Under the pieces are notes generated by a model. The model saw only the letters and a program-made list of their open reading frames with translations. It did no database searches and was not told the origin of the DNA. Below are positions 15,549 through 38,941 of a stretch of 64,000 bases of DNA, one piece after another. Location: contig JAJYNW010000006.1 in NCBI GenBank assembly GCA_021786105.1, positions 7,012-71,011 on the forward strand. The letters run 5' to 3'. The position numbers were made by a program, and so were the translations under genes. Numbering within the stretch: the stretch's first letter is position 1; every line of letters starts with the position of its first letter. The DNA comes from a bacterium. GTDB lineage: Bacteria; Patescibacteriota; Microgenomatia; Daviesbacterales; UBA10151.

Positions 15549-16820
15549 TCAGAACATATATTGGTGGTTGCGGGAGTGCAGCAGGGCAGGGATCATTTTT
15601 GAATCAAGGTGATTGATTTTATCAATCAGGCTAAAGTCTTTTGGATCGGAAAATGGGATCTGTATGCGTTCCCCGATATCTTTATTCCAGAATCTGAACC
15701 ATCTTTTTTCCGGCATGCCCAGGCTGGCAAATAAATGCGGGAAAAATTTATCTCCGATGATGTATATAACATCATCCCGGATTTCCTGAACTTGCGGGGA
15801 AAGTAAATTATGGTGACCGGAATCTAGAAGATGGAATTCTTCCTTCACGATCTCCCTTTGTATGCGATCAAGCTTTATTTCTCCCCTATCGTCAAGTTCC
15901 AGTATTAACCAGGCATTTTGCCGGGCGCTTTCAGTGGCTGTATAAAGGGTGCCAAAGCTTATAGGGTAATCTGCCATTTTCTGAAGCGCTTCCTCGGTTA
16001 CTTCTATATTCATATCTTGATCCAGCCATTGACCGATTTCTTTCGGTGTGGCATCCGGAGGTAACTTCGATCTTTTACTTAACCTGCGGGCTTCTGATTT
16101 GGCATCGGTCAGCAGCGCATAAACAGTGACATTCTTTGGATTCTCGGAACAAAGATGTTTTATGAGAGTGAAGCCCCGGTTGGATCCTAAGTAAGAATAA
16201 CCGTTTGATGTTCTTGAGGTAACATCTGAAACGCCGGAAGCGGTCATGGCGGGGAAATCAAGTGCCGTAATGCCAATATGGTTTCTGTCTATGGTCGGCA
16301 TCAGACTGCCTGGTTGCATTCCGTTTTTGGCTATTTCAACGGCCGGGAATCCAACATTGGTGATGATGTCAAAATCATCAGGAGACCACCTGCCCAGTTC
16401 TTTGGATTCTACCAGATTAGATCCTTCTGCTGTCCGGATCATATTGATAAAAAGCAGCCGGTAATAAACGAGCACTTGCCGAGAGTTTCTTGAACCGGGA
16501 TAGGGTACAATCCAGTCTTGATTATCGACTTCTTCCATAGATGGTTCCATAAGAGCGTAGATAAAATTGTTCATGAACTGATTTAAGGTATCGGTTTTTC
16601 CCCAGGCTGGGGCGCCGATAGAAACAACAAAGTTCATTTTTCCGCGGGGAGGTGTTTGGACCCGGTTAAAGAGATCCTGAAAGAGTTCGGTAAATTGCGG
16701 GTCAGATCTTCCTTCCTTATTAGTAAAAGGTTTCAAGTAGTTCAGGATTTCTGCTCCCGGAGACATATCCCATATAGCATACATGGCCGGTGTTTGCTCC
16801 GGGCGGAAGCCATAGTTCAT
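15549..16820 (-). CDS. P-loop NTPase or kinase-like protein of unknown function (Walker A 'GAPAWGKTD')
   Basis: 423-aa ORF with 'VVSIGAPAWGKTDTL'. Its 3' end overlaps by 4 nt the start of the upstream histidine kinase, so they are co-operonic. Confidence 0.5.
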   Translation of the reverse strand: MNYGFRPEQTPAMYAIWDMSPGAEILNYLKPFTNKEGRSDPQFTELFQDLFNRVQTPPRGKMNFVVSIGAPAWGKTDTLNQFMNNFIYALMEPSMEEVDNQDWIVPYPGSRNSRQVLVYYRLLFINMIRTAEGSNLVESKELGRWSPDDFDIITNVGFPAVEIAKNGMQPGSLMPTIDRNHIGITALDFPAMTASGVSDVTSRTSNGYSYLGSNRGFTLIKHLCSENPKNVTVYALLTDAKSEARRLSKRSKLPPDATPKEIGQWLDQDMNIEVTEEALQKMADYPISFGTLYTATESARQNAWLILELDDRGEIKLDRIQREIVKEEFHLLDSGHHNLLSPQVQEIRDDVIYIIGDKFFPHLFASLGMPEKRWFRFWNKDIGERIQIPFSDPKDFSLIDKINHLDSKMIPALLHSRNHQYMF

Positions 16821-17977
16821 ATTTTTGCTTTTGCTAATTGTACTTCTACCAAAGTTCCTTTGCCAGGATGTGATTTAATTTTAATTGAGCCTCGGTGTTT
16901 TTCAATAATACTTTTACACAAGAATAATCCCAGCCCCATTCCTTTAGAGGTGTCGTCCTCCTTTTTGTAGTAGCCTTCAAAGACCTTTGGTAAATCTTTT
17001 TTGCTAATTCCTTTACCCTGATCAATAACCCGCAAAACATAATTATGAGGTTTGGAGTCCAGGCGGATGGTGATCTGGGTATCCGGTGAGGAAAATTTAG
17101 CCGCATTCTCCAAAAGATTGTTAAGAACTTGTAATAGTTTGTCAAAATCCCCAATAATTTTATCATTTGGATTGTTAAGGAGATCTTCAAATATAATTTT
17201 TCTGTCCGGGTAGTTTAATTTAATTTTTTGAATTGCCATGTAGATAATTTCTTTCAAAGAACATTCCCTAAAAACGTACTGCAGTTCTCCTGACTTAATA
17301 CGCTCGATTTCCAAAAGTTCTTTAATTAAAAGAGTCAGATGATAACTTTCCGCATGCAGAAATTTAATCCATTTTGCTTCTGTGTTATTTCTTCCACTGC
17401 TTTTGGTATTTAGAAGCTGAGTGTAGCCAAAAATAGTGGCTACAGGGGTACGTAGCTCGTGTGCTGCCAAAGAAATAAACAAATCTCTGTTTTTCAAAGC
17501 TTTCCTTGTCTCATCATAAAGCTGCGTCTTTCTGATTGCCATAGAGGCCATGGAGGCAAACAGGCTTAAGATTTTTAGCTTATCATTATTAAAATGCTTC
17601 TCTTTACATGATAATACAGTTAAGACTCCAATAGACTTCTTGTGGTATGACAAAGGAATAATCATGGTAGATTTCATCCCTGCAGCTTCTAGCTGGGGAT
17701 GAATTTTAACCATCTTTTCTATTTTAGTGATTAAAGGTTTATGGCTTGTATAAGCTTGATATACAAAACCTTTTTTACGTTGTTTAAAAGAATATAAGAC
17801 AGCAGATGTAGCATATACTCTTTTAAGCTTTTTTCCTTGCTTTAAGAATATAGAAGCATCATCAGCCTGCACTAATTTTTTGGCCTCTTTGCCTACTATT
17901 GCATAAGTTTCCTCCGGGGTTAGCGGTTCCAGAAGCTTTAATCCTGATTTATAGATTTCCTCAAGAATATTTTCCAT
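16817..17977 (-). CDS. Sensor histidine kinase with GAF-like, HisKA and HATPase_c domains; paralog of 26..1201
   Basis: H-box 'AAHELRTPVATIFGYTQLL'; 'LLENAAKFSSPD'; 'DQGKGISKKDL'. Start chosen at 'MENILEEIYKSGL', which is homologous to 'MDNTLEAIYQSGL' of the other copy. Confidence 0.85.
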   Translation of the reverse strand: MENILEEIYKSGLKLLEPLTPEETYAIVGKEAKKLVQADDASIFLKQGKKLKRVYATSAVLYSFKQRKKGFVYQAYTSHKPLITKIEKMVKIHPQLEAAGMKSTMIIPLSYHKKSIGVLTVLSCKEKHFNNDKLKILSLFASMASMAIRKTQLYDETRKALKNRDLFISLAAHELRTPVATIFGYTQLLNTKSSGRNNTEAKWIKFLHAESYHLTLLIKELLEIERIKSGELQYVFRECSLKEIIYMAIQKIKLNYPDRKIIFEDLLNNPNDKIIGDFDKLLQVLNNLLENAAKFSSPDTQITIRLDSKPHNYVLRVIDQGKGISKKDLPKVFEGYYKKEDDTSKGMGLGLFLCKSIIEKHRGSIKIKSHPGKGTLVEVQLAKAKI

Positions 17978-18139
17978 GGAGTGCTCGCTGAAGGAATAAT
18001 AATAACAGGTCTTGAGGTTATTGCAATACAAAAACCTAATCTTCTTACATATTTCTTACTGAATTCTTATAGGATTTTGTAGTATCTCTCTTTATTGTTG
18101 TTTCATAAGGAACCTAGCCCAAGTGGTTAGGTTTTTATT

Positions 18140-18934
18140 ATGCCGGAAGGCGAACTAAGAGAATTACCAAAGTTAGGGATTGATTTTGATGGGACGATGG
18201 TGAATGTCATCGGTCCTTTTGTGCTTTGGTTGCGGTCAACTTATCCCAATAAGTTTACTAAAGCCCAGTATTTAAATAAAAATCCTGATGCCTCAGACCA
18301 GAAACAGCGTGATTACTCGGAGGTCAGGAGAGTTTTCATGACGGATCCTAAACGCATACCGGACCTGTCTTTTTACCGGGGAGTTTTGCAAGCTCTGCCG
18401 TTATTGAAGAGAGATTTCTCCGAAATCTATATCAATTCTTTAAGGTGGACGGACCCGGATCCCGAAAAAGACCAAGAATCTTCCATAAGAGGACTTTTAA
18501 GAGAGAATCATAGCTCTGAATATATCTCGGGAATTCTTTTAAGGAAAACCAGGGATGACAGAAAATGGGAGGTTAAGCTGGAGAATACACAAGAGTTCGG
18601 TATCAGCTATATGGTGGAAGATGATTCAAAGATAGCGCTGCGTCTTGCAAAATACCTGGAAGGAATTGTTTTGATTAGGAGACCCTGGAATAAACACGAA
18701 CCTAATAATCCGGGCTATGACCTTGCTAACCGCGAAAATTTAATAATATGCAGGGGGCTTTGGGATTTTGCGATGGGGGTTTATTTAGCCGGTTCTGTGG
18801 AAGAGTTTTTTGTAGAACATGCAGAAGGTTTAAAAGATCCCGTAAATCTTTATACTGTTTACCAGGCGCCGGTTCCCGCAGAAACGTGGATATCCCTCAC
18901 CGTATCCAGAGAGTTAGTTTCCTCATCTTCTTAG
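18140..18934 (+). CDS. Hypothetical protein with a possible HAD-like 'IDFDGTM' motif
   Basis: 'LGIDFDGTMVNVIG' resembles HAD motif I (DxDGT). The rest is unrecognised. Confidence 0.35.
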   Translation: MPEGELRELPKLGIDFDGTMVNVIGPFVLWLRSTYPNKFTKAQYLNKNPDASDQKQRDYSEVRRVFMTDPKRIPDLSFYRGVLQALPLLKRDFSEIYINSLRWTDPDPEKDQESSIRGLLRENHSSEYISGILLRKTRDDRKWEVKLENTQEFGISYMVEDDSKIALRLAKYLEGIVLIRRPWNKHEPNNPGYDLANRENLIICRGLWDFAMGVYLAGSVEEFFVEHAEGLKDPVNLYTVYQAPVPAETWISLTVSRELVSSSS

Positions 18935-18993
18935 TTTAGATATCTTGTAGTATTAATCAATTTTTTGTTACATGAATTGTTAAAAACAAAGGG

Positions 18994-19104: not shown

Positions 19105-19133
19105 TCAGACCAGCTGTTTAGAGCTGGTTTTTT
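19105..19133 (+). terminator. Terminator-like hairpin (ccagct-gtttag-agctgg + T6) inside the 5' leader of the TasA-like gene; possible attenuator
   Basis: 6-bp stem followed by TTTTTT, located between the candidate promoter and the RBS of 19177. Confidence 0.35.
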
Positions 19134-19176
19134 ATTGGAAAAAACATTTAAATTCTAGGGAAAGGGGGTGAAAAAA

Positions 19177-19767
19177 ATGGGAAAAATAATTTCAGGTTTA
19201 TTAGGTTTGGTAATGGTAGTGGCAGTAGTTTCCGGCACAGCTTATGCTGTATTTTCAGATCAAGTACAAGTAAGTGGTGTAACTTTGTCTACCGGTAATG
19301 CTGATTTACAAATTTGGGATGGAGATGGATGGCAAGAGAGTCTGTCATCAGCACTATTTACCGGTAACACTTACCCGGGTTGGCAGCAAGGTCAATATTT
19401 TGCTTTGCAAAATAATAGCGCTTCAAACATCGGATTGGATGTTACCGCTAGATTGACCAGTGCACCGTCCGGTAACTGGGGATTGCTCAGCCCGATAGTC
19501 CAGGTAGCAGTGGTTCAGTATGATAGTCAAGCTGCTGCATTGGCTGCTGTTGCCGCCAACAACCCCGGTCTTGGTGGAGTAGATGCTAGTACAGGATGGC
19601 AGACTTTAGCCGCATGGAATGCAAGTCCGATAGCTATTAGTACTAATTTGTTGAAGGGTGCACAGGGTGATTTTGTGATTTGGGGAAAGATTCCCTCAGA
19701 TGCAGGTAACTCTATTGCAAACCAGTCGCTTACGACTGATTGGGTGTTAATCGGTACTCAGCATTAA
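19177..19767 (+). CDS. TasA/camelysin-like secreted protein with a SipW-cognate-type signal peptide ('..SGTAYAVFSDQ')
   Basis: N-terminal TM followed by 'GTAYAVFSD' resembles the TasA/CalY signal region 'GGGTFAYFSD'. Encoded next to a SipW-type peptidase. RBS 'aaaggggg'. Confidence 0.65.
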   Translation: MGKIISGLLGLVMVVAVVSGTAYAVFSDQVQVSGVTLSTGNADLQIWDGDGWQESLSSALFTGNTYPGWQQGQYFALQNNSASNIGLDVTARLTSAPSGNWGLLSPIVQVAVVQYDSQAAALAAVAANNPGLGGVDASTGWQTLAAWNASPIAISTNLLKGAQGDFVIWGKIPSDAGNSIANQSLTTDWVLIGTQH

Positions 19768-19833
19768 TAAAGGTTTGAGTGCTTACTGATGGCATAAGGC
19801 AACTTGTGCTGTCAGATAAGGATTTAACTTTTT

Positions 19834-21861
19834 ATGAAGAAAACTTTAAAAAAGATTAATTTAGTATGGAAGAAAGTTGAAAAACCTGCAAAAATTGCCG
19901 GGAAGATTTTAGAGTGGGGAGTTTTTGCTGTTTTGGTTTTAATCTTTACCGTAGTGTTATCACCGCTTCTGCCGACTAAAAAATATGTTTCTACTTATAT
20001 TGTGTCTTCCGGTTCAATGGAGCCAACAATCAAAACCGGCTCAATCGCTTTTATTCAGCCGATAAAAGCAGATCAGGTTAAAGAAGGAGATATTGTTACT
20101 TTTACCCAACCAACAGATTCGACAAAAATTATCCTGCACCGGATTTTTAAAGCAGAAAACCAGAATGGAAATTTAAGTTTTCAAACCAAGGGTGACTATA
20201 ATAATGGCCCGGATATGTGGAACGTCCCTTCCACTTTAATGCAGGGGAAATATATTGCAGCCGTTCCTTATTTAGGGTATCCGGCCATGCTAATGAAAAC
20301 TCCAAAAGGTTTTGCTATAATAGTCGGCATTCCTGCCCTGCTCCTGCTCTTCCTGCAAATTAAAAAAATAAAGGAGGGTATTGAAGAAGAAGTCCAGAAA
20401 AGAACTGAGAGAGCTTTAAAGAAAGCAAAGCCTGTTAAAACTGACCTTTTAAGTATTTTGATGGCGGTAACCTTACTTTCTATACTTACTGGTTACAGCA
20501 GTATGAAATCAGTATCAGCTCTTTTTGTGTCTAAGGTAATGGTCAGCGGAGTTTCCATTTCCGTTAAGGATTTTGTGCCTCCGCCGGTCCCAGCCTTACT
20601 TTTGCCAGAGAATAATTCCAGCAGAAACACTAATGGGATGGTGATGGATTGGACTGATGTTTCTGATTATAAAGATATGCACAATCCGGTTTATTATATT
20701 TACCAAAGCGCTTACGATCCAGATTTTAAATCTGTTGCTTATACTTCCGCGCATCTTGCTGTTTCCCAAATTCCCGCTCCAGGAACTCCTAATGGAATTT
20801 ATTATTGGCATGTTAAGGCTTGCGACTCCATCGATAATTGTTCGGCCTGGTCAGATGCATGGAAGGTAACTGTGGACAATACTCCTGCACCTTCACTTAC
20901 CCCCACAGCTACACCAAGTGCTACCCCAACTCCAACACCTTCCCCCACACCATCCCCTTCTCCTAGCGTGGTTATCAATGAAGTGATGTGGATGGGGTCG
21001 ACTAAATCTGTGGCTGATGAATGGCTGGAGCTTCGTAATATGACTGATCATGAAATTGATCTTTCTAGCTGGCAAATTGAAAATGCAGTTTCCGGAGAGG
21101 GTGGCCATTTAGAAATTCCTGCACATAAAGTTATTCCGGCAAATGGATATTTCCTAATTTCCAACTACGAAGATGATGAGACTCATTCAGCTTTAAATGG
21201 GAGTTTACATATAGATTACCAGACAACAAGCATAAATTTTGAAAATGATTATAGGGAAAATGGGGCTTTGATTCTTAAAGACAAAGATAAAAATGTGATA
21301 GATTCAACCCCGGATCCAGTTTCTGGTAATTGGCCGGTGGGAAATGATGCTGGTTCAACCGGTTTGCATCAGTCCATGGAAAGAAATAATATTCCCGGAG
21401 ATGGGAGGTTGGTCAGTAGTTGGCATGCCTGCACTGATTCAGCTTGCCAAAGCACGGATTACTGGACTGTGAGTGGGGATAATTATGGAACTCCCAGGGC
21501 TTTAAATCATTCTGACAATGATCCAAGTACGACACCAACACCAACTCCTACTCCCACGCCCGCCCCAACACCAACTCCGACACCATCGACAACAATCAAT
21601 CCGGTTCCTGAATCGTCACCGTCAGCAAATTTAGGTTCCTCATCCGAGCCGGAACCTGAAGCATCTTTATCTCCGGCTCCTTCGTCTGCTCCTGAACCAA
21701 GCATGACACCGGTTCCTTCAGCGAGTCCGTCACCAACGCCGTCAGCAGAACCTGCCTCGAGTCCGGAGCCCTCTCCCACCCCTTCACCGTCACCTGTAAC
21801 TGGATCTGTTTCAACTCCGGAGCCATCGCCGTCTGCAACTCCTGCCCCCAAACGAAAATGA
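19834..21861 (+). CDS. SipW-type signal peptidase I (S26) fused to a lamin-tail domain (LTD) and Pro/Thr/Ser-rich low-complexity regions
   Basis: 'YIVSSGSMEPTIKTGSIAFIQP' is peptidase box B with the catalytic Ser, and 'ILHRIF' carries a His. LTD: 'VVINEVMWMGS..DEWLELRNMTDHEIDLSSWQIEN..IPANGYFLIS'. PT-rich linkers at 20884-20960 and 21520-21850. Confidence 0.7.
   Translation: MKKTLKKINLVWKKVEKPAKIAGKILEWGVFAVLVLIFTVVLSPLLPTKKYVSTYIVSSGSMEPTIKTGSIAFIQPIKADQVKEGDIVTFTQPTDSTKIILHRIFKAENQNGNLSFQTKGDYNNGPDMWNVPSTLMQGKYIAAVPYLGYPAMLMKTPKGFAIIVGIPALLLLFLQIKKIKEGIEEEVQKRTERALKKAKPVKTDLLSILMAVTLLSILTGYSSMKSVSALFVSKVMVSGVSISVKDFVPPPVPALLLPENNSSRNTNGMVMDWTDVSDYKDMHNPVYYIYQSAYDPDFKSVAYTSAHLAVSQIPAPGTPNGIYYWHVKACDSIDNCSAWSDAWKVTVDNTPAPSLTPTATPSATPTPTPSPTPSPSPSVVINEVMWMGSTKSVADEWLELRNMTDHEIDLSSWQIENAVSGEGGHLEIPAHKVIPANGYFLISNYEDDETHSALNGSLHIDYQTTSINFENDYRENGALILKDKDKNVIDSTPDPVSGNWPVGNDAGSTGLHQSMERNNIPGDGRLVSSWHACTDSACQSTDYWTVSGDNYGTPRALNHSDNDPSTTPTPTPTPTPAPTPTPTPSTTINPVPESSPSANLGSSSEPEPEASLSPAPSSAPEPSMTPVPSASPSPTPSAEPASSPEPSPTPSPSPVTGSVSTPEPSPSATPAPKRK
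21520..21850. repeat. Low-complexity coding repeat (TPTPTP / SPEPS) forming the C-terminal tail of 19834..21861
   Basis: Runs of ACn CCn codons. The minus-strand ORFs 21507..21851 and 21596..22039 are shadow ORFs of this repeat. Confidence 0.7.
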
Positions 21862-22976
21862 AAAAAATACTTAAAGTTTTAATATTGGTTTTGATAGGTT
21901 TTTCCTTTTTTCCGGCTTTGGCAAGGGCAGCAGACTTGAATATCGATTGCAATTCTTCTGACTGCACCAAAACCGGGCTGGAACCTATTTTCAGTACTGC
22001 TCTTGATGGAGTCTGGCATCCTGGAAGGATTATTACCAAGACGATTAATTTGAAAAATTCGGGAGCAGATACTAGTGAAATGGCTATTAAGGGAACAAGG
22101 GTGGGTGAGGCTGGTGCTTTAGAGCAAGTGATGAATGTCAGTTTGTCGGCGCCGGAAGGGCCGGTAATCTGGGCCGGCAGTTTGGCTGATTTTTATGCCC
22201 AGGACGTAATCAGGATGGGTGTTTTTGAGCCGGGTAAGGATTTGGATTATAACTTTACAGTCGGTATGGACTACGGGGCGGGTAACGATTACCAGAATTT
22301 GCAGGCAACTATGGATCTTTCCGTAGGTTTTTGGACTGAACCACCTTCCAGCCCCACTCCGTCTCCGGCCTCAACTTCCAACGGCAACGGGAGTAGAGAT
22401 GTATTGGGGGCAGGAGTCAGTGCTCCTTCTTGTAATGATGCCAAGCCGGCAACTCCTAATCTACTTTCAGCTGTAGTTACCGGTCCGAACCAGGTTACTT
22501 TAAACTGGTCTAAAGCTGATGGTAGTGTCAGCTATTACCTGGTGGCTTATGGGCTGGAATCCGGGAAGATGCTTTATGGCAATCCTAATGTGGGGGGTGC
22601 AGATACCACTTCTTATACGGTTAATGATTTATCCGGCGGAACAACTTATTATTTTAAAGTCAGGGCCGGTAACGGTTGCACCCCGGGAGAGCTTTCCAAC
22701 GAATTATCAGCCACCCCAGGAGGCCAGGCAGTAACCGGTACTCCGGCAGGCTTTTTGCCGGGTGTTTTAGGAGTGACAAACGAAGAAGCAGTGCCTTCGT
22801 CAGAGCCGGAGAGTTCCCAATCAGGTATTTTAGGTGCTGAAACATCACCAAAACCGAAAGAGGCTGTAATAGTGGGAGGTTTTATGGGTAAACTGGGTTG
22901 GTTTGTTTTAGGACCTGTGGCATTATTTGTTTTTCTTTTCGGACGCAAGCTTTTAGGTAAAAGATTTCCGTTTTAG
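21858..22976 (+). CDS. Secreted TasA-like domain protein with a fibronectin-III-like domain and a C-terminal TM anchor; paralog of 37028..37687
   Basis: Sec signal '..ALARAADL'. N-terminal domain aligns with 37028 ('AADLNIDCNSSDC..LKNSGADTSEMAIKG' vs 'AADLEISCSGSDK..LKNDSGADQVISVQG'). FN3-like 'VTLNWSKADGSVSYYLVAYG..TTYYFKVRAGN'. C-terminal TM 'WFVLGPVALFVFLFG'. Confidence 0.6.
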   Translation: MKKILKVLILVLIGFSFFPALARAADLNIDCNSSDCTKTGLEPIFSTALDGVWHPGRIITKTINLKNSGADTSEMAIKGTRVGEAGALEQVMNVSLSAPEGPVIWAGSLADFYAQDVIRMGVFEPGKDLDYNFTVGMDYGAGNDYQNLQATMDLSVGFWTEPPSSPTPSPASTSNGNGSRDVLGAGVSAPSCNDAKPATPNLLSAVVTGPNQVTLNWSKADGSVSYYLVAYGLESGKMLYGNPNVGGADTTSYTVNDLSGGTTYYFKVRAGNGCTPGELSNELSATPGGQAVTGTPAGFLPGVLGVTNEEAVPSSEPESSQSGILGAETSPKPKEAVIVGGFMGKLGWFVLGPVALFVFLFGRKLLGKRFPF

Positions 22977-28145: not shown

Positions 28146-30062
28146 ATGGTTAAAAGAGTTTTAGTGCTAATCGTCTTCCTGTTCTGCCTCATCTTGCCGC
28201 AAAAAGTGTCTGCTGCAGAGCTTCCAACTGGTAAGGCTGGATTTGCTACTGCTTATGATGTTTTGTACGACGTGGATGACAGCGGAATAACCGCTGTTAC
28301 TGAAAAAATCACCCTCAAAAATTTAACTTCGGAATACTATGCCAATCAATTTAAATTAACCATTGGAGCCACCCAAATTTCCGATATTAATGCTTCTGAT
28401 CCTGGCGGACCGTTGGAGGTGACTCAACAGCAACAGGCCACCACCACTACTATCGGAGTGAAATTCAACCAGCAGGTAGCAGGATTAGGGAAGAGCCTGT
28501 CTTGGACTATCTCGTTTAAATCCAAGGATTTTGCGGAAAAATCCGGTAAGGTTTGGGAAATCAGAACCCCGAAAATTTCTTCCACCTCAAATATGGAATC
28601 CTACAACCTGACTTTATCTGTACCGCAGAGCTTCGGTGAGCCTTCTTTAATCAGCCCGCTTCCCAAGAGCCAAACCATTTCTATGGGTAAAATATTTTTG
28701 ACTTTTGATAAAAGCCAGCTGGAATCTTCCGGCATCTCTGCCAATTTTGGTGCAAATCAGCTGTTTGATTTTGACCTGACATATCACCTAAAAAATGACA
28801 ATTGGATGCCGATTCTGACTAGTGTGGCCTTGCCTCCTGATACGTCTTTTCAGGATGTGATTTACCAAAGAATTGAGCCTAAGCCGCTTAATGTGACGGT
28901 GGATAATGACGGTAATTATTTAGCTTGGTTTTGGTTAAACCGCGGCCAGAAAACGGATGTAAAAGTTTTTGGCTCGGCAAAGCTTTATACAAATTCTAAA
29001 GTAAAACATCCTTTTTTGGATGACACCTTACGGAGGAAATATACTGAATCTGCTAAATACTGGGAAAAGGATAACCCGCAAATTTTGGCTAAATTAAATG
29101 AAATTCTGGGCAGTAACCCGGCGGTGGATACGGAAACTAAAGCTAAGCTGATTTTTCAGTTTGTGGTGGATTACTTAAGATACGACCCCTCGAGATTGAA
29201 AGACAGTAACACGGAAAGGTTGGGCGCTGTGACAGCTTTGGCCAACCCAAATTCGGCAGTCTGTATGGAGTTTACTGATTTATTTATTGCGCTGGCCCGG
29301 GCAGCCGGCATACCGAGCCGGGAATTGGATGGGTACGCTTATACTGCCAATTCCACCTTGCGGCCACTTTCTTTGACCAAGGATATTCTTCATACCTGGC
29401 CGGAGTATTGGGATGACAGACGCGGCTGGGTTATGGTAGATCCAACCTGGGCCAATACTACCGGCGGAGTTGATTATTTTAGCAAATTAGATTTAAATCA
29501 CTTTGTTTTTGCAGTAAAAGGTTTTTCCTCTACCGATCCTATCCCGGCTGGTTCTTACAAATCCGGTGATCAGGATTCCCATGATGTGAAAGTGACTTTA
29601 TCCGAGAATGATTTTTTAGGTAAACCGCAGATTGATGTTCAAATTGATATCCCAAATCCGATGCTGTCCGGTCTTCCCGGAGTAATAAAATTAAAAGTTA
29701 CCAATACCGGTAATGCCGTTTATCCGTCAGCCCCATTGGCTGTAAAGGCTGATAAGCTCTTAATACTTGATTCAGCGGACCAAAGTTCCGGTTTAATCCC
29801 GCCTTTTGGTACAGCCGAGTTTAGTTTTAATACCCGGACTAAATCCCTATTTGATACTTACAATGACCAAATTTCCGTGACTGTCGGCGGACAGAAATTT
29901 ACCAAAGACATTGTAGTCAAACCCTTAATATTATTCCAGGGAACACCATTTATAATAGCTTCGGTTGGAGTATTGATGGTGCTAATTTACATATCAGTTT
30001 TAGGCGTCCACATCCATCAGAAAAGGAAGGCCAAGGGTAAGAAAAAGCACGTTAGAAAGTAG
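28146..30062 (+). CDS. Secreted transglutaminase-like domain protein with a C-terminal TM anchor
   Basis: Signal peptide. Transglutaminase core 'CMEFTDLFIALARAAGIPSRELDGYAY'. C-terminal TM 'FIIASVGVLMVLIYISVLGV' plus a basic tail. Confidence 0.65.
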   Translation: MVKRVLVLIVFLFCLILPQKVSAAELPTGKAGFATAYDVLYDVDDSGITAVTEKITLKNLTSEYYANQFKLTIGATQISDINASDPGGPLEVTQQQQATTTTIGVKFNQQVAGLGKSLSWTISFKSKDFAEKSGKVWEIRTPKISSTSNMESYNLTLSVPQSFGEPSLISPLPKSQTISMGKIFLTFDKSQLESSGISANFGANQLFDFDLTYHLKNDNWMPILTSVALPPDTSFQDVIYQRIEPKPLNVTVDNDGNYLAWFWLNRGQKTDVKVFGSAKLYTNSKVKHPFLDDTLRRKYTESAKYWEKDNPQILAKLNEILGSNPAVDTETKAKLIFQFVVDYLRYDPSRLKDSNTERLGAVTALANPNSAVCMEFTDLFIALARAAGIPSRELDGYAYTANSTLRPLSLTKDILHTWPEYWDDRRGWVMVDPTWANTTGGVDYFSKLDLNHFVFAVKGFSSTDPIPAGSYKSGDQDSHDVKVTLSENDFLGKPQIDVQIDIPNPMLSGLPGVIKLKVTNTGNAVYPSAPLAVKADKLLILDSADQSSGLIPPFGTAEFSFNTRTKSLFDTYNDQISVTVGGQKFTKDIVVKPLILFQGTPFIIASVGVLMVLIYISVLGVHIHQKRKAKGKKKHVRK

Positions 30063-35147: not shown

Positions 35148-35705
35148 ATGAGAAGAATTCTTTTAGCCACTGTAATCGCCACTGCTTCTCTTTCGGTAGC
35201 TGTGATGACAACTTGGGCTGCCTGGACTTCGTCTGTAACAGTCAGTAATAACGTTATTACTACAGGCAGTGTTAGCTTGCAAGTTTCTCTTACTGGTAAC
35301 AGTAATGATTATGGATCATCTGTATCCTCAAGCACAGCGATATCCGGTTTAATGCCTACCAATACAAGCAGTAAAGGTACGACATTCTATGTAAAAAACA
35401 ACAGCTCAACCGGGGTTAATTTTAACCTGGGAGCTGTAGGATCAGCTGTTATTTCTGGGAGTCCTGCACCTGCCGATTTAACCAGTCTGCAGATATCAAT
35501 TGTCCCGAGTGGAAGCTCAGCTTCAACAATTGATGCTAACTATCATACATTGTCTGCATGGGGATCCAGTCAGACTTTGGGTACTTTGAGTTCAGGAGCA
35601 AGCCAACCATATGATATATATGCCAAGCTTGCTACCACCGCAGCCGATGATTGGCAAGGAAGACAAGTAACCTTTGCCGTTACGGTTACCGGTTCACAGA
35701 TCTAG
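35148..35705 (+). CDS. TasA-like secreted protein with a SipW-cognate-type signal ('..TTWAAWTSS')
   Basis: AGGAGGTG RBS. N-terminal TM followed by 'TWAAWTSSVTVSNNVITTG'. Composition resembles 19177 ('VKNNSSTGVNFNLGAVG'). Confidence 0.55.
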   Translation: MRRILLATVIATASLSVAVMTTWAAWTSSVTVSNNVITTGSVSLQVSLTGNSNDYGSSVSSSTAISGLMPTNTSSKGTTFYVKNNSSTGVNFNLGAVGSAVISGSPAPADLTSLQISIVPSGSSASTIDANYHTLSAWGSSQTLGTLSSGASQPYDIYAKLATTAADDWQGRQVTFAVTVTGSQI

Positions 35706-35775
35706 AATTTTTCTAGTCTTTTTGGGAGTCAAAGGGACGCCTTTGGCTCCTTGTAAAGGTTAGAAGTTTAATTAT

Positions 35776-36330
35776 ATGAAGTTGATTTGGCCAAAACATA
35801 CAATTTTGTTTACTTTTAAAGTATTAATTTTTTGCCTGGCGGTTTTTATGGCCATATTGTCAGCGTTGGTGTATTTGCCTTTGAAAACACCGCTTAAAAT
35901 GTTTGTAGTTTTATCCGGCAGTATGAACCCGGTAATTCCGGCCGGTTCGATTGTAATGGTTGAGCGTGAGCCGGTCTCGATTCAAAAGGGAGAGGTGATC
36001 ACTTTTATCCATCCAAATAAACCACTGGAGTTTGTTACCCACAGAGTTATTAATGTTGAGAGTCAAGGAAATACAGCTGTTTATCAAACAAAGGGAGATG
36101 CTAATAATATTCCGGATCAGTGGGTGGTAAAAAAAGAGGCTGTTTGGGGTAAAGCCACTTTTGTGGTGCCATTTTTGGGTTATCTAATCAACTTTGCCAA
36201 AACTAAGTTGGGGGTAGTGTTGATAATAGCGTTACCGCTGTTTTTAATAGCTGCCAGCGAAATGACAGTAATTGTTAAAGAAATTAAACGCCTTAGGCAG
36301 GCAAAGATTAAACTGCCGCAACTGGACTAA
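35776..36330 (+). CDS. SipW-type signal peptidase I (standalone, 184 aa)
   Basis: 'VVLSGSMNPVIPAGSIVMV' is box B with the catalytic Ser. 'VTHRVI' carries a His. N- and C-terminal TM helices. Confidence 0.8.
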   Translation: MKLIWPKHTILFTFKVLIFCLAVFMAILSALVYLPLKTPLKMFVVLSGSMNPVIPAGSIVMVEREPVSIQKGEVITFIHPNKPLEFVTHRVINVESQGNTAVYQTKGDANNIPDQWVVKKEAVWGKATFVVPFLGYLINFAKTKLGVVLIIALPLFLIAASEMTVIVKEIKRLRQAKIKLPQLD

Positions 36331-37031
36331 TGAAAAAAAATAAATCCTTATTTTTAGCAATAATTTTGATTTTGAGTTTTAACGTGCTGATGCTGGTGCC
36401 AACTACCCGGGCGCTTTTTACAGACAGTATCCAAGTGACAAATAACAATATTTCTACCGGCACCTGGCCGGCACCTACGCCAACCCCAACCGCAACTCCG
36501 GCTCCCACACCAACACCTACCCCGGCACCAACTGCTACACCAACCCCTGCTCCTACTGCCACTCCGGCACCGACGACGACTCCTAACCCGAATGCGGTTG
36601 ATACCAGAATTGATCCTGCTACTGCCACTGCTTCAGCTAGTCAGAACTTTACTGTTAATTTAGTAGTCAGTAACGCCCAAGATACGGGAGGATTCCAGAC
36701 AACTATTTCTTATGACCCAAACAAAGTAACTTTTGTCAGCGCAGCTTTGGGTCCATTCCTTACCAGTACCGGTAGAGCTCTTTATGGGACATTTGGGCCA
36801 ATGGTAGATTCTACAGCCGGGACTGTAACCTATGGAGCTAATACCCTCGGCCTTGCTCCGCTTGGACCTAATGGTGAAGGAACTATTGCCAGCTTTACCT
36901 TTACAACTAAATCAGTCGGCCAAAGCAGCTTGAATATTACTGATATGGAGGTTGACCGCCGTTTAGATACAGGTTCGGGTTCAATCCAGCCTAACGGCCA
37001 AATAACAGGAGGAACCGTCACTGCCCAGTGA
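36330..37031 (+). CDS. Secreted cohesin-like domain protein with a SipW-cognate signal ('..TTRALFTDS') and a PT-rich linker
   Basis: 'TRALFTDSIQVTNNNISTG' signal-type motif. PT linker 36470-36600. Cohesin-like 'QNFTVNLVVSNAQDTGGFQTTISYDPNKVTFVSAALGPF'. Confidence 0.55.
   Translation: MKKNKSLFLAIILILSFNVLMLVPTTRALFTDSIQVTNNNISTGTWPAPTPTPTATPAPTPTPTPAPTATPTPAPTATPAPTTTPNPNAVDTRIDPATATASASQNFTVNLVVSNAQDTGGFQTTISYDPNKVTFVSAALGPFLTSTGRALYGTFGPMVDSTAGTVTYGANTLGLAPLGPNGEGTIASFTFTTKSVGQSSLNITDMEVDRRLDTGSGSIQPNGQITGGTVTAQ
36470..36600. repeat. PT-linker coding repeat (PAPTPTPTATPAPTPTPTPAPTATPTPAPTATP)
   Basis: The minus-strand ORF 36308..36628 (GVGVAVGAGV...) is its shadow. Confidence 0.7.
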
Positions 37032-37687
37032 AACTTACTTTGAAGTTATTCGTTATAACTATAATGCTGGTTTTTACTCCTTTGCTACTAACAGGCTTAG
37101 TCAAAGCCGCGGATTTGGAAATTAGTTGTTCCGGTTCAGACAAAGATTGTTCAAAATCAACTGATGCTTCCTTGTTTAGCGCAACTGACGGGTTGTGGTT
37201 TCCCGGAAAAACTGTTTCCAAAATTATCTCTTTAAAAAATGACAGCGGGGCAGATCAAGTAATATCCGTCCAGGGGATCCGAAGAGGCAGAAGAGACGGC
37301 TTGGGGAATGTGTTATACCTGACTTTTGCCAACAACCAAACCAGTCAGATTGTTTGGCAGGGCACTTTAACCAGGCTTGATGCTAATAAATTAATTAATC
37401 TGGGTAGTCTTGCAGCTGGGGATAGCCTGGAAGTAAAGACGTCTTTAGGGATGTTAAAAACTGCCTCTGCTGACTTCGAAAACCAAAAAACTACCTTTGA
37501 TCTGACTTTTAATTTCCGAAGTGACAGCGAAAAAAATAACAAGACTGAAGAGAGAAAGAATGAGGGCCGGGTTTTGGGGCAATCAACTGAGGCGACCCCA
37601 GAGTCTTCCTGGATTTCAAAAATATTTACAGCCATTCATGGATTTTTCTCAAGAATTTTCAGTGTCTTTAATGTCTTTGCCCGGTGA
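37028..37687 (+). CDS. Secreted TasA-like domain protein; paralog of the N-terminal domain of 21858..22976
   Basis: Sec signal '..LVKAADL'. Motif-by-motif alignment with 21858 ('DGLWFPGKTVSKIISLKNDSGADQVISVQG'). Confidence 0.55.
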   Translation: MKLTLKLFVITIMLVFTPLLLTGLVKAADLEISCSGSDKDCSKSTDASLFSATDGLWFPGKTVSKIISLKNDSGADQVISVQGIRRGRRDGLGNVLYLTFANNQTSQIVWQGTLTRLDANKLINLGSLAAGDSLEVKTSLGMLKTASADFENQKTTFDLTFNFRSDSEKNNKTEERKNEGRVLGQSTEATPESSWISKIFTAIHGFFSRIFSVFNVFAR

Positions 37688-37735
37688 CAGCCTGAATTGA
37701 CATATGCAAGTTACCTATAGTAAACTTTAGAACTT

Positions 37736-38941
37736 ATGTCTATAGAATCTAAATTAAATAAGATAGAAAAACTTCTCCCGGTTAGTCGCAAGGGTGGAAT
37801 AAATATAGTTGGTGGAGTATTAATTACTGGTACGGCCTTGTTGATTGCTGCAAATCCGGATGCTGCAGCAGCATTTTTTGCTAAATTGAGTTCCCCGAGT
37901 GCAGTTTCCAGTATTCCTGCCGTTCCTACCCCAGGATTAGGAGCAATGACTGTTTACCAGGTTGAAAATGCCAACCCCACCAATCTTCTTGTTACATCAA
38001 TTATTACGGATACTGTGAGCTTTAAAACAGTCATAACTAATACTATTCCTGCATGCAGTACTTCCCAGATCCATCTTAGAGATATTAATCAAGTTTCCAG
38101 TCCTTTTAACGGAGCAATGACTGTTAGCGCGGATCAACCCATGAATGCAAGAATTGTCGGTTATGATTATCCGCCCGGGGTTGTGGTTACTACGACAATA
38201 AATCAGCAAGTACAAGCGGTAGATTTTAACGGAGACGGAAAAATAACCAATGCGGATATCCAACCTCCAGCTACCCGTTGGGGAATTGACGAATGTAATA
38301 CTGCTTATGCTTCGCAATATGATATCAGAAACGCAAATGGTGAAAAATATCCTGACGGCAAAATGAAAACTGGAGATATCCAAGCAGTATCCACCATGTG
38401 GGGTATGACCTACACCCTGCCCATCACTAATACGGCTCAGGCAGCGGCTTTAAAGCGGCCTTTGGCAATGGCGCCACAAGTGGATTTAAAACTTCAACCG
38501 TCAGATATTACTGTTTTGCCTGGAGGGACTTTCACCGTTAGCATTGAAGCGGATAATGTGACTGATCTGGCTGGATTTGAGGCTACACTGAAATATGACC
38601 CTGCGAAATTACAAATGACGGGTACTCTGTTAGGTAAGACAAGCCGACCCATGAAGCAACTAAGCCGTCCAACAGAAGACGGCAACGGTATTGTGGTAGA
38701 AGGTCATAGTCAGGGGATGCTTCCGGCGGGAGATAATGGCAATGTTGTTTTGGAAACCTTTTCTTTTAAGGCAGGAGGAGCGGGTAGTATTGATTTAACA
38801 CTGAGCGGTGCAGAAGTAAACTCACGCCTTAATGGCGGAATGGGTATTAGGTCTATAACTAATGCCAAGGTTTTAATTTCTGACCTTTTGCACAGGCTCT
38901 ATTTGCCTGGGGTATTCCGCTTATCGCCCTCGAAGCCTTAA
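37736..38941 (+). CDS. Cell-surface protein with a dockerin-like Ca-binding repeat and a cohesin-like domain
   Basis: 'VDFNGDGKITNADIQ' is a dockerin-type repeat. 'FTVSIEADNVTDLAGFEATLKYDPAKLQM' is a cohesin-like signature. N-terminal TM. Confidence 0.5.
   Translation: MSIESKLNKIEKLLPVSRKGGINIVGGVLITGTALLIAANPDAAAAFFAKLSSPSAVSSIPAVPTPGLGAMTVYQVENANPTNLLVTSIITDTVSFKTVITNTIPACSTSQIHLRDINQVSSPFNGAMTVSADQPMNARIVGYDYPPGVVVTTTINQQVQAVDFNGDGKITNADIQPPATRWGIDECNTAYASQYDIRNANGEKYPDGKMKTGDIQAVSTMWGMTYTLPITNTAQAAALKRPLAMAPQVDLKLQPSDITVLPGGTFTVSIEADNVTDLAGFEATLKYDPAKLQMTGTLLGKTSRPMKQLSRPTEDGNGIVVEGHSQGMLPAGDNGNVVLETFSFKAGGAGSIDLTLSGAEVNSRLNGGMGIRSITNAKVLISDLLHRLYLPGVFRLSPSKP

What the first reader, a model, noticed from the sequence alone, without database searches (positions are those of the whole stretch)
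19834..21861. Signal peptidase fused to a lamin-tail domain and Pro/Thr-rich tails
A SipW-type S26 peptidase domain (catalytic 'SGSMEPT') continues into ~480 extra residues. These hold an FN3-like stretch, an LTD ('VVINEV..EWLELRN..DLSSWQIEN') and about 110 residues of PT/SPE low complexity. I am not aware of signal peptidases fused to LTD modules. It could tether the processing enzyme to a surface polymer or to a host cell.
Basis: seen in the sequence. Interest (0 to 1): 0.55.

Follow-up and report, generated by a model that had tools for sequence, protein, structure and literature searches.

The report
Signal peptidase fused to its substrate
In this ultra-small (CPR/Patescibacteria) bacterium a SipW-type signal peptidase gene has merged with the neighbouring gene for one of its own secreted substrates, so one chain holds the enzyme, the substrate's signal peptide with an intact cleavage site, and a surface-binding (lamin-tail) module that the enzyme probably cuts free.

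Summary
ORF 19834..21861 (675 aa) has a SipW/ER-type signal peptidase domain (TIGR02228, 114.6 bits), an FN3-like domain, an LTD (Pfam, 50.5 bits) and a 120-aa Pro/Ser/Thr tail. It is not an assembly error: the identical protein lies on 10 independent contigs, and more than 100 diverged clusters share the architecture.

After the usual second membrane helix come a Lys-rich loop and a third, weaker hydrophobic segment. This is followed by xxA|xF(S/T)(S/D)..SG.(S/T)(I/F)S, the motif that follows SipW-dependent signal peptides.

In related genomes (L010, L008), and in a second cassette in this window (35148..38941), sipW and the cargo gene are separate, with overlapping stop and start. The cargo there begins with this same signal peptide.

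In 97 fusions P1 is Ala or Ser in 96/96 and P2' is Phe or Tyr in 91/97. The catalytic Ser/His/Asp residues are invariant.

Best reading: this is an enzyme-substrate fusion inside a TasA-like fibre cassette, cleaved at Ala229|Leu230 to release the FN3-LTD cargo. Cleavage is inferred, not shown. The LTD is only one of several alternative cargos.

Novelty: a new variant of a known kind. I found no description of it in the literature library.

The parts
19177..19767 (+). Upstream gene (196 aa from the ATG at 19177; the ORF lists from GTG 19168). A small secreted protein with a SipW-type signal peptide (..GTAYA|VFSDQVQVSGVTLSTG). Probably a TasA/camelysin-like fibre subunit.
   Evidence: TIGR04088 scores 16.3 bits and PF12389 14.5 bits, both below cutoff for this copy. 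Orthologues pass PF12389: P0123 26.3, L008 23.2, L010 35.9 bits against a cutoff of 22.5. A family profile against PDB gives AbpX x2 and TasA x2 as its top four hits, E 0.006-0.02. The AlphaFold model is weak (pLDDT 62.9) and the fold search is inconclusive.
19834..21861 (+). The fused gene: sipW::cargo, 675 aa.
19834..20418 (+). SipW/ER-type signal peptidase I domain (aa 1-195). It includes TM1 (aa 30-46, nt 19921-19971) and TM2 (aa 160-176, nt 20311-20361).
   Evidence: TIGR02228 scores 114.6 bits. Hydrophobicity scan. This is the same length as the standalone SipW genes of L010, L008 and window 35776..36330.
20008..20025 (+). Catalytic-serine motif SGSMEP (Ser61 = nt 20014-20016). The other catalytic residues are His102 (20137-20139), Asp121 (20194-20196) and Asp127 (20212-20214).
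   Evidence: Among fused proteins, Ser61 is 98/98, His102 98/98, Asp121 97/98 and Asp127 98/98. The 19 standalone SipW show the same conservation. The selection regex biases Ser61 but not His or Asp.
20362..20445 (+). Predicted cytoplasmic K/R-rich loop (aa 177-204, KKIKEGIEEEVQKRTERALKKAKPVKTD). It corresponds to the SipW C-terminal tail plus the n-region of the cargo's signal peptide.
   Evidence: 10 K+R against 6 D+E. Equivalent loops occur in 65 fusions. In split loci SipW ends in a K-rich tail and the cargo ORF starts with an overlapping ATG.
20446..20496 (+). Third hydrophobic segment (aa 205-221), read as the h-region of an internal SipW-type signal peptide.
   Evidence: An HMM built only from N-terminal signal peptides of standalone proteins places its best hit here in 142/163 peptidase proteins. 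This window's protein scores 9.2 bits at aa 205-247, against control maxima of 2.7 (reversed) and 4.4 (locally shuffled). The segment is less hydrophobic than TM1 and TM2 and resembles standalone signal peptides.
20497..20526 (+). c-region and predicted cleavage site SSMKSV-S-A229 | L230-F231 (the scissile bond falls between nt 20520 and 20521).
   Evidence: Column statistics over 97 fusions: P1 is Ala in 91/96 and Ser in 5/96; P3 is T/A/S/V in 82/92; P2' is Phe in 83/97 and Tyr in 8/97. TasA also has Phe at P2' and needs SipW (PMC10269814).
20521..20574 (+). Conserved N-terminal segment of the predicted mature cargo (LFVSKVMVSGVSISVKDF). It is similar to the mature N-terminus of the upstream protein (VFSDQVQVSGVTLSTGN). 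Possibly a donor strand.
   Evidence: Alignment A1 is gap-free across this motif for both fusions and standalone proteins; column statistics. The donor-strand role is inferred from TasA/TapA (PMC10151520).
20575..20883 (+). FN3-like beta-sandwich domain (aa ~248-350).
   Evidence: No Pfam hit. The model is well folded here, and the fold search returns tandem FN3 pairs at E ~5e-4. The same domain is present in the standalone homologues P0044, P0049, P0057 and P0062.
20950..21306 (+). Lamin tail domain (aa 373-491). It is preceded by a PT linker (aa 351-377) and followed by a conserved Cys-containing extension to about aa 564.
   Evidence: PF00932 scores 50.5 bits. The lamin A/C Ig-fold gives the top structural hits. 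The conserved columns W301, C304, W315 and the GTP motif appear in A3.
21499..21858 (+). C-terminal Pro/Ser/Thr/Glu-rich low-complexity tail (aa 556-675). It has no LPXTG motif or membrane anchor.
   Evidence: Composition 30% P, 23% S, 14% T.
21858..22976 (+). Downstream gene (372 aa), whose start overlaps the stop of the fusion. It has an ordinary AxA|ADL signal peptide, an N-terminal domain shared with cassette paralogues, an FN3 domain and a C-terminal membrane anchor.
   Evidence: fn3 scores 43.7 bits. Orthologues sit at the same position in L005, L008 and L010, and there is a paralogue at 37028..37687.
35148..38941 (+). Second, unfused cassette in the same window. It comprises a 185-aa protein with a SipW-type signal peptide (35148-35705), a standalone SipW (35776-36330), a cargo with a SipW-type signal peptide, PT linker and cohesin domain (36330-37031; TAATG overlap with sipW), a paralogue of the 372-aa gene (37028-37687), and a cohesin protein (37736-38941).
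   Evidence: Scores: TIGR04088 22.2 bits; TIGR02228 115.1 bits; cohesin 31.8 and 28.6 bits.
49284..49928 (+). Sortase (214 aa). In related genomes the sortase lies directly after the cassette.
   Evidence: PF04203 scores 86.5 bits. Sortase lies next to the cassette in L005, L008 and L010.

Best explanation
The gene is a natural fusion of sipW (an ER/archaeal-type signal peptidase I) with the gene that normally follows it, which encodes a SipW-dependent secreted protein.

Proposed sequence of events:
1. The chain inserts with its N-terminus in the cytoplasm. TM1 crosses the membrane and the catalytic domain sits on the outer face.
2. TM2 returns the chain to the cytoplasm, where the Lys-rich loop stays.
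3. The third, weaker hydrophobic segment acts as the cargo's signal peptide and exports the rest of the chain: a conserved N-terminal strand, an FN3-like domain, the LTD and the Pro/Ser/Thr tail.
4. A SipW-type active site then cuts between Ala229 and Leu230. The active site could be the one on the same chain, on another copy, or on the standalone paralogue at 35776..36330.
5. Cleavage leaves a three-helix membrane peptidase of about 229 aa and frees a cargo of about 446 aa.

The gene sits in a three-gene cassette: a TasA/camelysin-like subunit, the SipW::cargo fusion, and a membrane-anchored TasA-like/FN3 protein. This is a CPR counterpart of tapA-sipW-tasA.

The cargo keeps a TasA-like N-terminal strand but has no acceptor domain. 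The most likely role is therefore TapA-like: it donates that strand to the first fibre subunit, so the fibre carries a binding module (here the LTD; a cohesin in the second cassette).

What is shown and what is inferred:
- Shown: the architecture, the homology of the junction to cognate signal peptides, the split orthologues and paralogue, and the conservation of the site and catalytic residues.
- Inferred: export topology, cleavage, whether cleavage is in cis or in trans, and the fibre role.
For: 1. The gene is real and intact. The identical protein is on 10 independent contigs. There are 109 representatives at E<1e-30, and most of the top 150 have the extra segment plus a C-terminal extension.

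2. The junction is a cognate signal peptide.
- 65 fusions share a third hydrophobic segment followed by xAxF(S/T)(S/D)..G.(T/S)(F/I)S. This aligns without gaps to the N-termini of standalone LTD proteins and of the upstream neighbour.
- TIGR04088 passes its 19-bit cutoff on the internal segment of fusions P0072 (26.7), P0090 (23.9) and P0096 (22.3).
- An HMM built only from standalone N-termini hits this segment in 142/163 peptidase proteins. This window's protein scores 9.2 bits against control maxima of 2.7 and 4.4.

3. Split orthologues exist.
- The syntenic locus L010 reads TP_methylase - VTT - LexA ... UvrB - UvrA - transglutaminase. It has a 209-aa SipW and then the 452-aa LTD protein P0065, with an ATGA overlap.
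- L008 has a 194-aa SipW and then P0049 (signal peptide + FN3-like + LTD + tail), the same architecture as this cargo.
- A split paralogous cassette lies in this window.

4. The cleavage-site signature is retained in 97 diverged fusions: P1 Ala/Ser 96/96, P3 small in 82/92, P2' Phe/Tyr 91/97. P2' Phe is the feature of TasA that requires SipW (PMC10269814).

5. The catalytic Ser/His/Asp/Asp residues are invariant in fused forms.

6. The third segment is less hydrophobic than TM1 and TM2 (1.92 against 2.69 and 2.38; lower in 84/89 and 77/89). It matches the h-regions of standalone signal peptides (2.05).

7. There is no in-frame start codon with a ribosome-binding site before the third segment, so the cargo cannot be made separately.

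8. Cassette context is TasA-like. The TapA precedent for a strand-donating initiator comes from PMC10151520, and AbpB has been proposed as a strand-donating adhesin (PMC9245690).
Against: - Nothing here shows cleavage; all of it is sequence inference.
- This window's own junction is a diverged version of the motif (ALFVSK rather than AYFSD). It does not hit TIGR04088 and scores only 9.2 bits with my HMM.
- The residues after the site could be conserved for a structural role unrelated to cleavage.
- If the module is simply cut off, it is unclear what selective advantage keeps the fusion, which persists in clades of up to 18 diverged representatives. That persistence could instead argue for a tethered, uncleaved state.
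- The TasA-like nature of the neighbours is only weakly supported for this window's copies: PF12389 is below cutoff, PDB profile E-values are 0.006-0.02, and the fold search is inconclusive.
- The function of the LTD is unknown.
Confidence: 0.6

Rival explanations
1. Uncleaved tether. The third hydrophobic segment is a permanent membrane anchor. The FN3-LTD-PT module stays covalently attached to the peptidase on the cell surface, placing the enzyme next to a surface polymer, a fibre assembly site or a host cell.
For: The fusion is maintained over long divergence (pure fused clades of up to 18 representatives), which suggests a benefit from physical linkage. The topology puts the module outside the cell. 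No cleavage has been observed.
Against: P1 Ala/Ser is strictly retained (96/96) and P3 is small, although neither position would matter for a plain anchor. The segment is signal-peptide-like rather than anchor-like in hydrophobicity. The same module is a free secreted protein in split orthologues. An active SipW site on the same membrane surface, plus a second SipW in the genome, would be expected to cut such a site.
Confidence: 0.27
2. Artefact. Two adjacent genes (sipW and an LTD gene) were joined by an assembly or sequencing error, such as a lost stop codon or a frameshift.
For: In related genomes the two genes are separate, with overlapping stop and start, so a single-base error could mimic a fusion.
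Against: The identical 675-aa product comes from 10 contigs in independent assemblies. More than 100 diverged clusters and 19 GTDB species representatives carry the same in-frame architecture, with a conserved loop sequence.
Confidence: 0.02
3. The peptidase domain of the fused copy no longer works as a general signal peptidase. It serves only as a membrane-insertion or chaperone platform for its cargo, and the standalone SipW (35776..36330) does all the processing, including any cleavage of the fusion in trans.
For: The genome has a second, standalone SipW with its own substrates.
Against: The catalytic Ser/His/Asp/Asp are invariant in 98 fused proteins. The fused copy has its own adjacent SipW-type substrate (the 196-aa protein).
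Confidence: 0.08

Closest known systems
Bacillus subtilis tapA-sipW-tasA operon (SipW, the ER/archaeal-type signal peptidase dedicated to TasA and TapA)
   Same: - The same peptidase subfamily (TIGR02228; Ser-His-Asp type; N- and C-terminal membrane helices).
- Dedicated substrates encoded next to it, with the TIGR04088-type signal peptide and an aromatic P2' residue.
- A cassette holding a TasA/camelysin-like subunit plus an accessory protein that shares the N-terminal strand.
- Overlapping stop and start codons between cassette genes.
   Different: - Here the peptidase and one substrate are a single polypeptide.
- The protein falls below the Bacillus SipW equivalog cutoff (104 against 190 bits).
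- The accessory cargo carries FN3-like and LTD domains (or cohesin, Big_13 and others in relatives) rather than the TapA fold.
- The cassette includes a membrane-anchored TasA-like protein and, in relatives, a sortase.
- The host is a CPR/Microgenomates bacterium.
Standalone SipW plus LTD-protein gene pairs of other Microgenomates (for example locus L010 with P0065, and L008 with P0049)
   Same: Orthologous locus and gene order. The cargo architecture is the same (signal peptide, FN3-like or TasA-like domain, LTD, low-complexity tail). LTD regions are 45-55% identical.
   Different: These are two genes with an ATGA overlap instead of one ORF.
Archaeal bundling pili AbpA/AbpB and AbpX (the TasA superfamily in archaea)
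   Same: Donor-strand fibres built from small jelly-roll subunits. An accessory protein (AbpB) has been proposed to start the fibre by donating a strand and to carry distal adhesin domains (PMC9245690). AbpX is the best PDB sequence hit of the upstream neighbour's family profile.
   Different: The archaeal loci have no dedicated signal peptidase and no fusion. Similarity to this window's proteins is marginal.
Self-cleaving S24 peptidases (LexA, UmuD), which share MEROPS clan SF with the S26 signal peptidases
   Same: A related catalytic fold that cuts a site on its own chain (after Ala in LexA). This gives a precedent within the clan for intramolecular cleavage.
   Different: S24 enzymes use Ser-Lys, are soluble, and their cleavage is regulatory. 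Here the enzyme is a Ser-His membrane signal peptidase, and cleavage in cis is only a hypothesis.
Bacterial extracellular LTD proteins (for example the nuclease ExeM of Shewanella, PMC6085458)
   Same: The LTD appears as an extracellular accessory module of secreted or surface proteins.
   Different: No nuclease or other enzyme domain is attached to the LTD here. The LTD's ligand is unknown in both cases.

Membership tests
ER/archaeal-type signal peptidase I (S26B; TIGR02228, SipW-like) | Family HMM above the curated cutoff | tested here: met
   TIGR02228 scores 114.6 bits against a cutoff of 51.85, over aa 30-178. Pfam S26 scores 29.8 and S24 23.5 bits, both above cutoff.
ER/archaeal-type signal peptidase I (S26B; TIGR02228, SipW-like) | Catalytic Ser with His (not Lys) as the general base, plus conserved Asp residues | tested here: met
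   Ser61 (SGSMEP), His102 (LHR), Asp121 and Asp127 (KGDYNNGPD) are present and are 97-98/98 conserved in fused relatives. Assigning these as catalytic rests on published Sec11/SipW work, recalled from knowledge.
ER/archaeal-type signal peptidase I (S26B; TIGR02228, SipW-like) | Membrane helices at both ends of the catalytic domain | tested here: met
   TM1 is aa 30-46 and TM2 aa 160-176.
ER/archaeal-type signal peptidase I (S26B; TIGR02228, SipW-like) | Signal-peptide cleavage activity | not testable with these tools
   Needs expression and cleavage assays.
Bacillus SipW equivalog (NF046067) | Equivalog HMM above its cutoff | tested here: not met
   104.3 bits against a cutoff of 190. The protein belongs to the same subfamily but is not the Bacillus orthologue.
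Lamin tail domain (PF00932) | Pfam HMM above the gathering score | tested here: met
   50.5 bits against 34.3, aa 373-491, covering 2-104 of 109 model positions.
Lamin tail domain (PF00932) | Lamin-type Ig-like beta-sandwich fold | tested here: met
   Lamin A/C globular domains (6ghd, 1ifr, 3gef) are the best Foldseek hits of the cargo model, with target TM 0.62-0.65 and probability 1.00.
SipW-dependent-type signal peptide (TIGR04088), applied to the internal segment aa 195-250 | Family HMM above the 19-bit cutoff | tested here: inconclusive
   This window's segment gives no hit. The homologous segment of the fusions P0072, P0090 and P0096 passes (26.7, 23.9, 22.3 bits), and P0008 and P0063 fall just below. 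My HMM from standalone N-termini gives 9.2 bits here against control maxima of 2.7 and 4.4.
SipW-dependent-type signal peptide (TIGR04088), applied to the internal segment aa 195-250 | n-region / h-region / c-region layout with small residues at P1 and P3 and an aromatic residue at P2' | tested here: met
   K/R-rich loop, a 17-aa h-region, and the c-region SSMKSVSA. P3 is Val227, P1 Ala229, P2' Phe231.
SipW-dependent-type signal peptide (TIGR04088), applied to the internal segment aa 195-250 | Encoded next to a SipW-type peptidase | tested here: met
   It is fused to one here. In split orthologues and in the paralogous cassette it lies immediately downstream of one.
TasA/camelysin family (PF12389), applied to the upstream 196-aa neighbour | Family HMM above cutoff and a jelly-roll fold | tested here: inconclusive
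   This window's copy scores 14.5 bits against a cutoff of 22.5. Orthologues pass, but mostly over the N-terminal third. The top four PDB profile hits are AbpX and TasA at E 0.006-0.02. The model has pLDDT 62.9; AbpA ranks 5th and is not significant.
Fibronectin type III (PF00041), applied to aa ~248-350 | Pfam HMM hit | tested here: not met
   No hit at E<=0.1. There is only fold-level resemblance to tandem FN3 pairs, so the label 'FN3-like' is appropriate.

The most novel reading that the evidence does not exclude
This is a natural single-chain enzyme-substrate pair. A type I signal peptidase cleaves, in cis, a cognate signal peptide built into its own polypeptide. Cleavage releases a TapA-like 'primer' whose freed N-terminal strand starts a TasA-like fibre, which then carries an interchangeable binding head (LTD, cohesin, Big_13 and others). 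On this reading, the fibre is how these ultra-small, probably host-dependent bacteria attach to partners or surfaces. Repeated fusion and fission of sipW with different substrates would then be a general way in CPR to couple export, processing and fibre initiation one-to-one.
Probability: 0.2. Interest if true: 0.75.

Novelty: new variant of a known kind. Interest (0 to 1): 0.55.

Why it matters
Signal peptidases are normally separate enzymes that meet their substrates in the membrane. A widespread natural fusion of one to its own substrate offers several things:

1. A built-in enzyme-substrate complex. A catalytic-Ser mutant should trap the signal peptide on the enzyme, which would help structural work on how SipW/ER-type peptidases recognise sites that LepB cannot cut.
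2. A direct way to ask whether signal peptidase can act in cis.
3. Better annotation. Hundreds of CPR proteins labelled 'signal peptidase I' are really two-part precursors whose C-terminal halves are secreted surface proteins.
4. A view of CPR surface biology. Microgenomates carry TasA-like fibre cassettes with swappable binding heads and sortases. These are candidate attachment organelles in organisms whose cell-surface biology is almost unknown.

Tried and rejected
- TIGR04088 on this window's junction fragment gave no hit. I therefore relied on homologous fragments and on an HMM built from standalone N-termini with reversed and shuffled controls.
- AlphaFold plus Foldseek on the 196-aa neighbour gave a low-confidence model (pLDDT 62.9) with no significant hit. 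Its TasA-like status therefore stays provisional.
- The promoter and terminator scan of 18800-23300 returned counts equal to shuffled expectation, so it is uninformative.
- Separate translation of the cargo from an internal start is rejected. The first in-frame ATG (Met210) lies inside the hydrophobic segment and has no ribosome-binding site. The AAGGAGG at 20371-20377 encodes the conserved K-E-G and is not followed by a usable start.
- Assembly or frameshift artefact is rejected.
- Literature searches for SipW with LTD, LTD with Patescibacteria, SipW with CPR terms, and SipW with fusion, internal signal peptide or self-cleavage found nothing relevant. This library lacks most subscription-journal papers, so absence there is not proof of novelty.
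- I did not model aa 1-260 to see whether the site docks into the active site.
Full report
**Observation.** ORF 19834..21861 (+) encodes 675 aa.
- The N-terminal ~195 aa are an ER/archaeal-type signal peptidase I. TIGR02228 scores 114.6 bits (cutoff 51.85). The Bacillus SipW model scores 104 bits, below its 190-bit equivalog cutoff. Pfam S26 and S24 are both above cutoff.
- Residues 373-491 match the lamin tail domain (PF00932, 50.5 bits, cutoff 34.3).
- An AlphaFold model of aa 230-565 (21-sequence alignment, pLDDT 75.6) finds lamin A/C Ig-fold domains as its best PDB matches (TM 0.62-0.65), and also tandem FN3 pairs. The 'FN3-like' stretch is therefore supported at fold level only.
- The last 120 residues are 30% Pro, 23% Ser and 14% Thr.

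**Not an artefact.**
- The identical protein is encoded on 10 contigs from independent assemblies: two NCBI MAGs and several Logan assemblies.
- Dozens of diverged clusters combine S26 with LTD.
- An exhaustive phmmer search with aa 1-250 found 109 representatives at E<1e-30. Most of the best 150 are 230-1243 aa long and aligned through about aa 245.
- Among the 80 nearest SipW loci in GTDB species representatives, 19 are fused and 55 are standalone. The fused ones include Shapirobacteria, a complete Woesebacteria genome (CP011214.1), Dojkabacteria and Zambryskibacteria.

**The junction is the key feature.** The protein has three hydrophobic segments: aa 30-46, 160-176 and 205-221.
- The first two are the normal SipW helices. 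The Lys/Arg-rich loop (aa 177-204) and the third segment are additional.
- In all 65 fusions first examined, the third segment is followed by a motif of the form xxA-x-F-(S/T)-(S/D)...(S/N)G-x-(T/S)-(F/I)-S.
- Standalone LTD proteins from related organisms (P0044, P0049, P0052, P0057, P0059, P0061, P0062, P0074, P0075, P0092) carry the same motif right after their N-terminal signal peptide. So does the 196-aa protein encoded just upstream in this window (..GTAYAVFSDQVQVSGVTLSTG). The alignment is gap-free across it.
- This is the SipW-dependent-type signal peptide of NCBIfam TIGR04088. The internal segments of the fusions P0072, P0090 and P0096 pass its 19-bit cutoff (26.7, 23.9, 22.3 bits), and two more fall just below.
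- This window's own version is more diverged (SVSALFVSKVMVSGVSISVK) and does not hit TIGR04088.
- An HMM built only from ten standalone N-termini scores it 9.2 bits, exactly at aa 205-247. The best scores in 164 reversed and 164 locally shuffled controls were 2.7 and 4.4. In 142 of 163 peptidase-containing proteins the best hit of that HMM falls on the third segment.

**Split orthologues and a split paralogue.**
- Locus L010 comes from a 754-kb Microgenomates contig and is syntenic with this window: TP-methylase, VTT, LexA ... UvrB, UvrA, DUF2207/transglutaminase. Its gene order is a camelysin-like protein (PF12389, 35.9 bits), a 209-aa SipW, the 452-aa LTD protein P0065 starting at an ATGA overlap, a 414-aa protein, and a sortase.
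- Locus L008 has a 194-aa SipW followed by P0049, again with an ATGA overlap. P0049's architecture (signal peptide, FN3-like, LTD, low-complexity tail) is that of this window's C-terminal 446 residues.
- This window contains a second, unfused cassette:
  - 35148-35705, with TIGR04088 at 22.2 bits;
  - 35776-36330, a standalone SipW (TIGR02228, 115 bits);
  - 36330-37031, with a SipW-type signal peptide (TRA|LFTD), a PT linker and a cohesin domain, overlapping sipW at TAATG;
  - 37028-37687, a paralogue of the gene downstream of the fusion;
  - 37736-38941, a cohesin protein.

The fused gene is therefore sipW joined in frame to the substrate gene that normally follows it. The Lys-rich loop is the SipW cytoplasmic tail plus the n-region of the signal peptide.

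**Is the site still a cleavage site?**
- In 97 diverged fusions P1 is Ala in 91/96 and Ser in 5/96. P3 is Thr, Ala, Ser or Val in 82/92. P2' is Phe in 83/97 and Tyr in 8/97. For this window's protein the site reads V227-S-A229 | L230-F231.
- TasA likewise has Phe at P2' and depends on SipW because LepB handles such sites poorly (PMC10269814).
- The third segment is less hydrophobic than TM1 and TM2: mean 19-residue Kyte-Doolittle peak 1.92 against 2.69 and 2.38, lower in 84/89 and 77/89 (Wilcoxon p ~1e-15 and ~1e-11). It resembles the h-regions of standalone substrate signal peptides (2.05).
- The catalytic residues Ser61, His102, Asp121 and Asp127 are conserved in 97-98 of 98 fused proteins, as in standalone SipW.
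- There is no in-frame start codon with a ribosome-binding site ahead of the third segment, so the cargo can only be made as part of the fusion.

Together these points argue that the chain is exported through its internal signal peptide and cut after Ala229. No experiment shows this. Whether cleavage is in cis, in trans between copies, or by the paralogous SipW cannot be decided here.

**Context and likely role.**
- The fusion sits between a 196-aa protein with a SipW-type signal peptide and a 372-aa protein. The 372-aa protein has an ordinary AxA|ADL signal peptide, an FN3 domain (43.7 bits) and a C-terminal membrane anchor, and its start overlaps the fusion's stop.
- The same triad flanks fusions and split pairs elsewhere, often with a sortase. 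This window's sortase lies at 49284-49928.
- The small upstream protein family is probably TasA/camelysin-like. Orthologues pass PF12389, and a family profile's four best PDB hits are AbpX (twice) and TasA (twice) at E 0.006-0.02. However, this window's copy is below the Pfam cutoff, and its structural model was too weak to decide.
- The predicted mature cargo begins LFVSKVMVSGVSISVKDF, which resembles the neighbour's mature N-terminus VFSDQVQVSGVTLSTGN. It is followed by no TasA-like acceptor domain.
- In B. subtilis the N-terminal strand of TasA inserts into the next subunit, and TapA donates its N-terminus to start the filament (PMC10151520). A similar strand-donating, adhesin-bearing role was proposed for archaeal AbpB (PMC9245690).
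- By analogy, I propose the cargo is a TapA-like initiator or tip protein that equips the fibre with a binding head. This is inference with low to moderate confidence.
- The head varies: LTD alone, FN3-like plus LTD, a TasA-like domain plus LTD, Big_13 or further FN3 without LTD, a camelysin-like domain fused directly (Zambryskibacteria L045, L088), or cohesin in this window's second cassette. So the LTD is one of several cargos and not the defining partner. Its ligand is unknown.

**Evolution.** On a rough neighbour-joining tree of 182 SipW domains (108 fused, 74 standalone), at least 18 changes of state are needed, and purely fused clades reach 18 representatives. Fusion and fission therefore seem to have happened repeatedly, and the fused state can persist. 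The tree rests on a short domain and is only indicative.

**Comparison with what is known.**
- The closest system is tapA-sipW-tasA of Bacillus. It shares the peptidase subfamily, the cognate signal peptides with an aromatic P2', and a TasA-like cassette. It differs in the covalent fusion, the cargo domains, the membrane-anchored TasA-like partner and the CPR host. The protein does not reach the Bacillus SipW equivalog cutoff.
- The self-cleaving S24 peptidases (LexA; same MEROPS clan, from general knowledge) are a precedent for intramolecular cleavage by this fold.
- Literature searches for SipW with LTD, LTD with Patescibacteria, SipW with CPR terms, and SipW with fusion or internal signal peptide found nothing. 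Public databases simply label these proteins 'signal peptidase I'.

**Verdict.**
However, the extension is a fused substrate with its own signal peptide and cleavage site, not a tether for the enzyme.
- I rate it a new variant of a known kind.
- Interest is about 0.55. It is a neat, testable curiosity for protein-secretion and CPR surface biology, not an answer to a long-standing question.

Noticed in passing
window 35148..38941: A second, unfused SipW cassette. Its genes are a 185-aa protein with a SipW-type signal peptide, a standalone 184-aa SipW, a 233-aa cargo (SipW-type signal peptide + PT linker + cohesin domain), a 219-aa paralogue of the 372-aa gene, and a 401-aa protein with a cohesin domain and a weak dockerin hit. 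Cohesin/dockerin modules in a CPR bacterium are unusual in themselves.
   Followed up: partly
window 49284..49928: A sortase (Pfam 86.5 bits; nearest to class F at 142 bits, below the 166-bit cutoff). It lies far from both cassettes here, whereas in the related loci L005, L008 and L010 the sortase sits directly beside the cassette. No LPXTG-like motif was seen in the cassette proteins, so its substrates are unknown.
   Followed up: partly
L045, L084, L088 (Zambryskibacteria and unnamed MAGs), ORFs of 374-519 aa: SipW fused directly to a camelysin/TasA-like protein (internal ..TVSYFNDTE.S.GNLLNAGSLDFSV). The enzyme-substrate fusion principle therefore extends to the fibre subunit itself, and to the Parcubacteria side of the CPR.
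   Followed up: partly
window 15549..18934 compared with L010: Relative to the syntenic locus L010, this window has three extra genes between LexA and the cassette: a 423-aa protein with no family hit, a GAF-histidine kinase (404 aa) and a 264-aa protein with no hit.
   Followed up: no
window 20371..20377: A perfect Shine-Dalgarno-like AAGGAGG lies inside the loop-coding region, where it encodes the conserved K-E-G. No usable in-frame start follows it, so it is probably a by-product of the conserved peptide. An internal SD could cause translational pausing just before the signal peptide is made.
   Followed up: partly
window 40634..41668 (-): A Fic/DOC-family protein (Pfam 67.9 bits; motif HPFMDGNGRTTR), not related to the finding.
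   Followed up: no
window 28146..30062: A 638-aa protein with a signal peptide, a weak DUF2207-like N-terminal region, a transglutaminase-like core (60.9 bits) and a C-terminal membrane anchor. It is conserved at the same position in L010. A possible cross-linking enzyme near a fibre cassette.
   Followed up: no
L012, L013, L017, L020-L022, L034, L043 (genome contigs titles): Several MAG records titled 'uncultured Gammaproteobacteria' or 'Pseudomonadales' carry these CPR-type SipW fusions. The record taxonomy looks unreliable and should not be read as evidence for the fusion outside the CPR.
   Followed up: no
P0002, P0004, P0016, P0022, P0028 C-termini: Many longer fusions end in a conserved ~90-aa domain (..SF.V..IS.YSKL.YELSYD....G..G.VDLSG......L.LGTCS.GG.C.Y...VKN..LKI.L) that has no Pfam annotation. 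It is absent from this window's protein.
   Followed up: no
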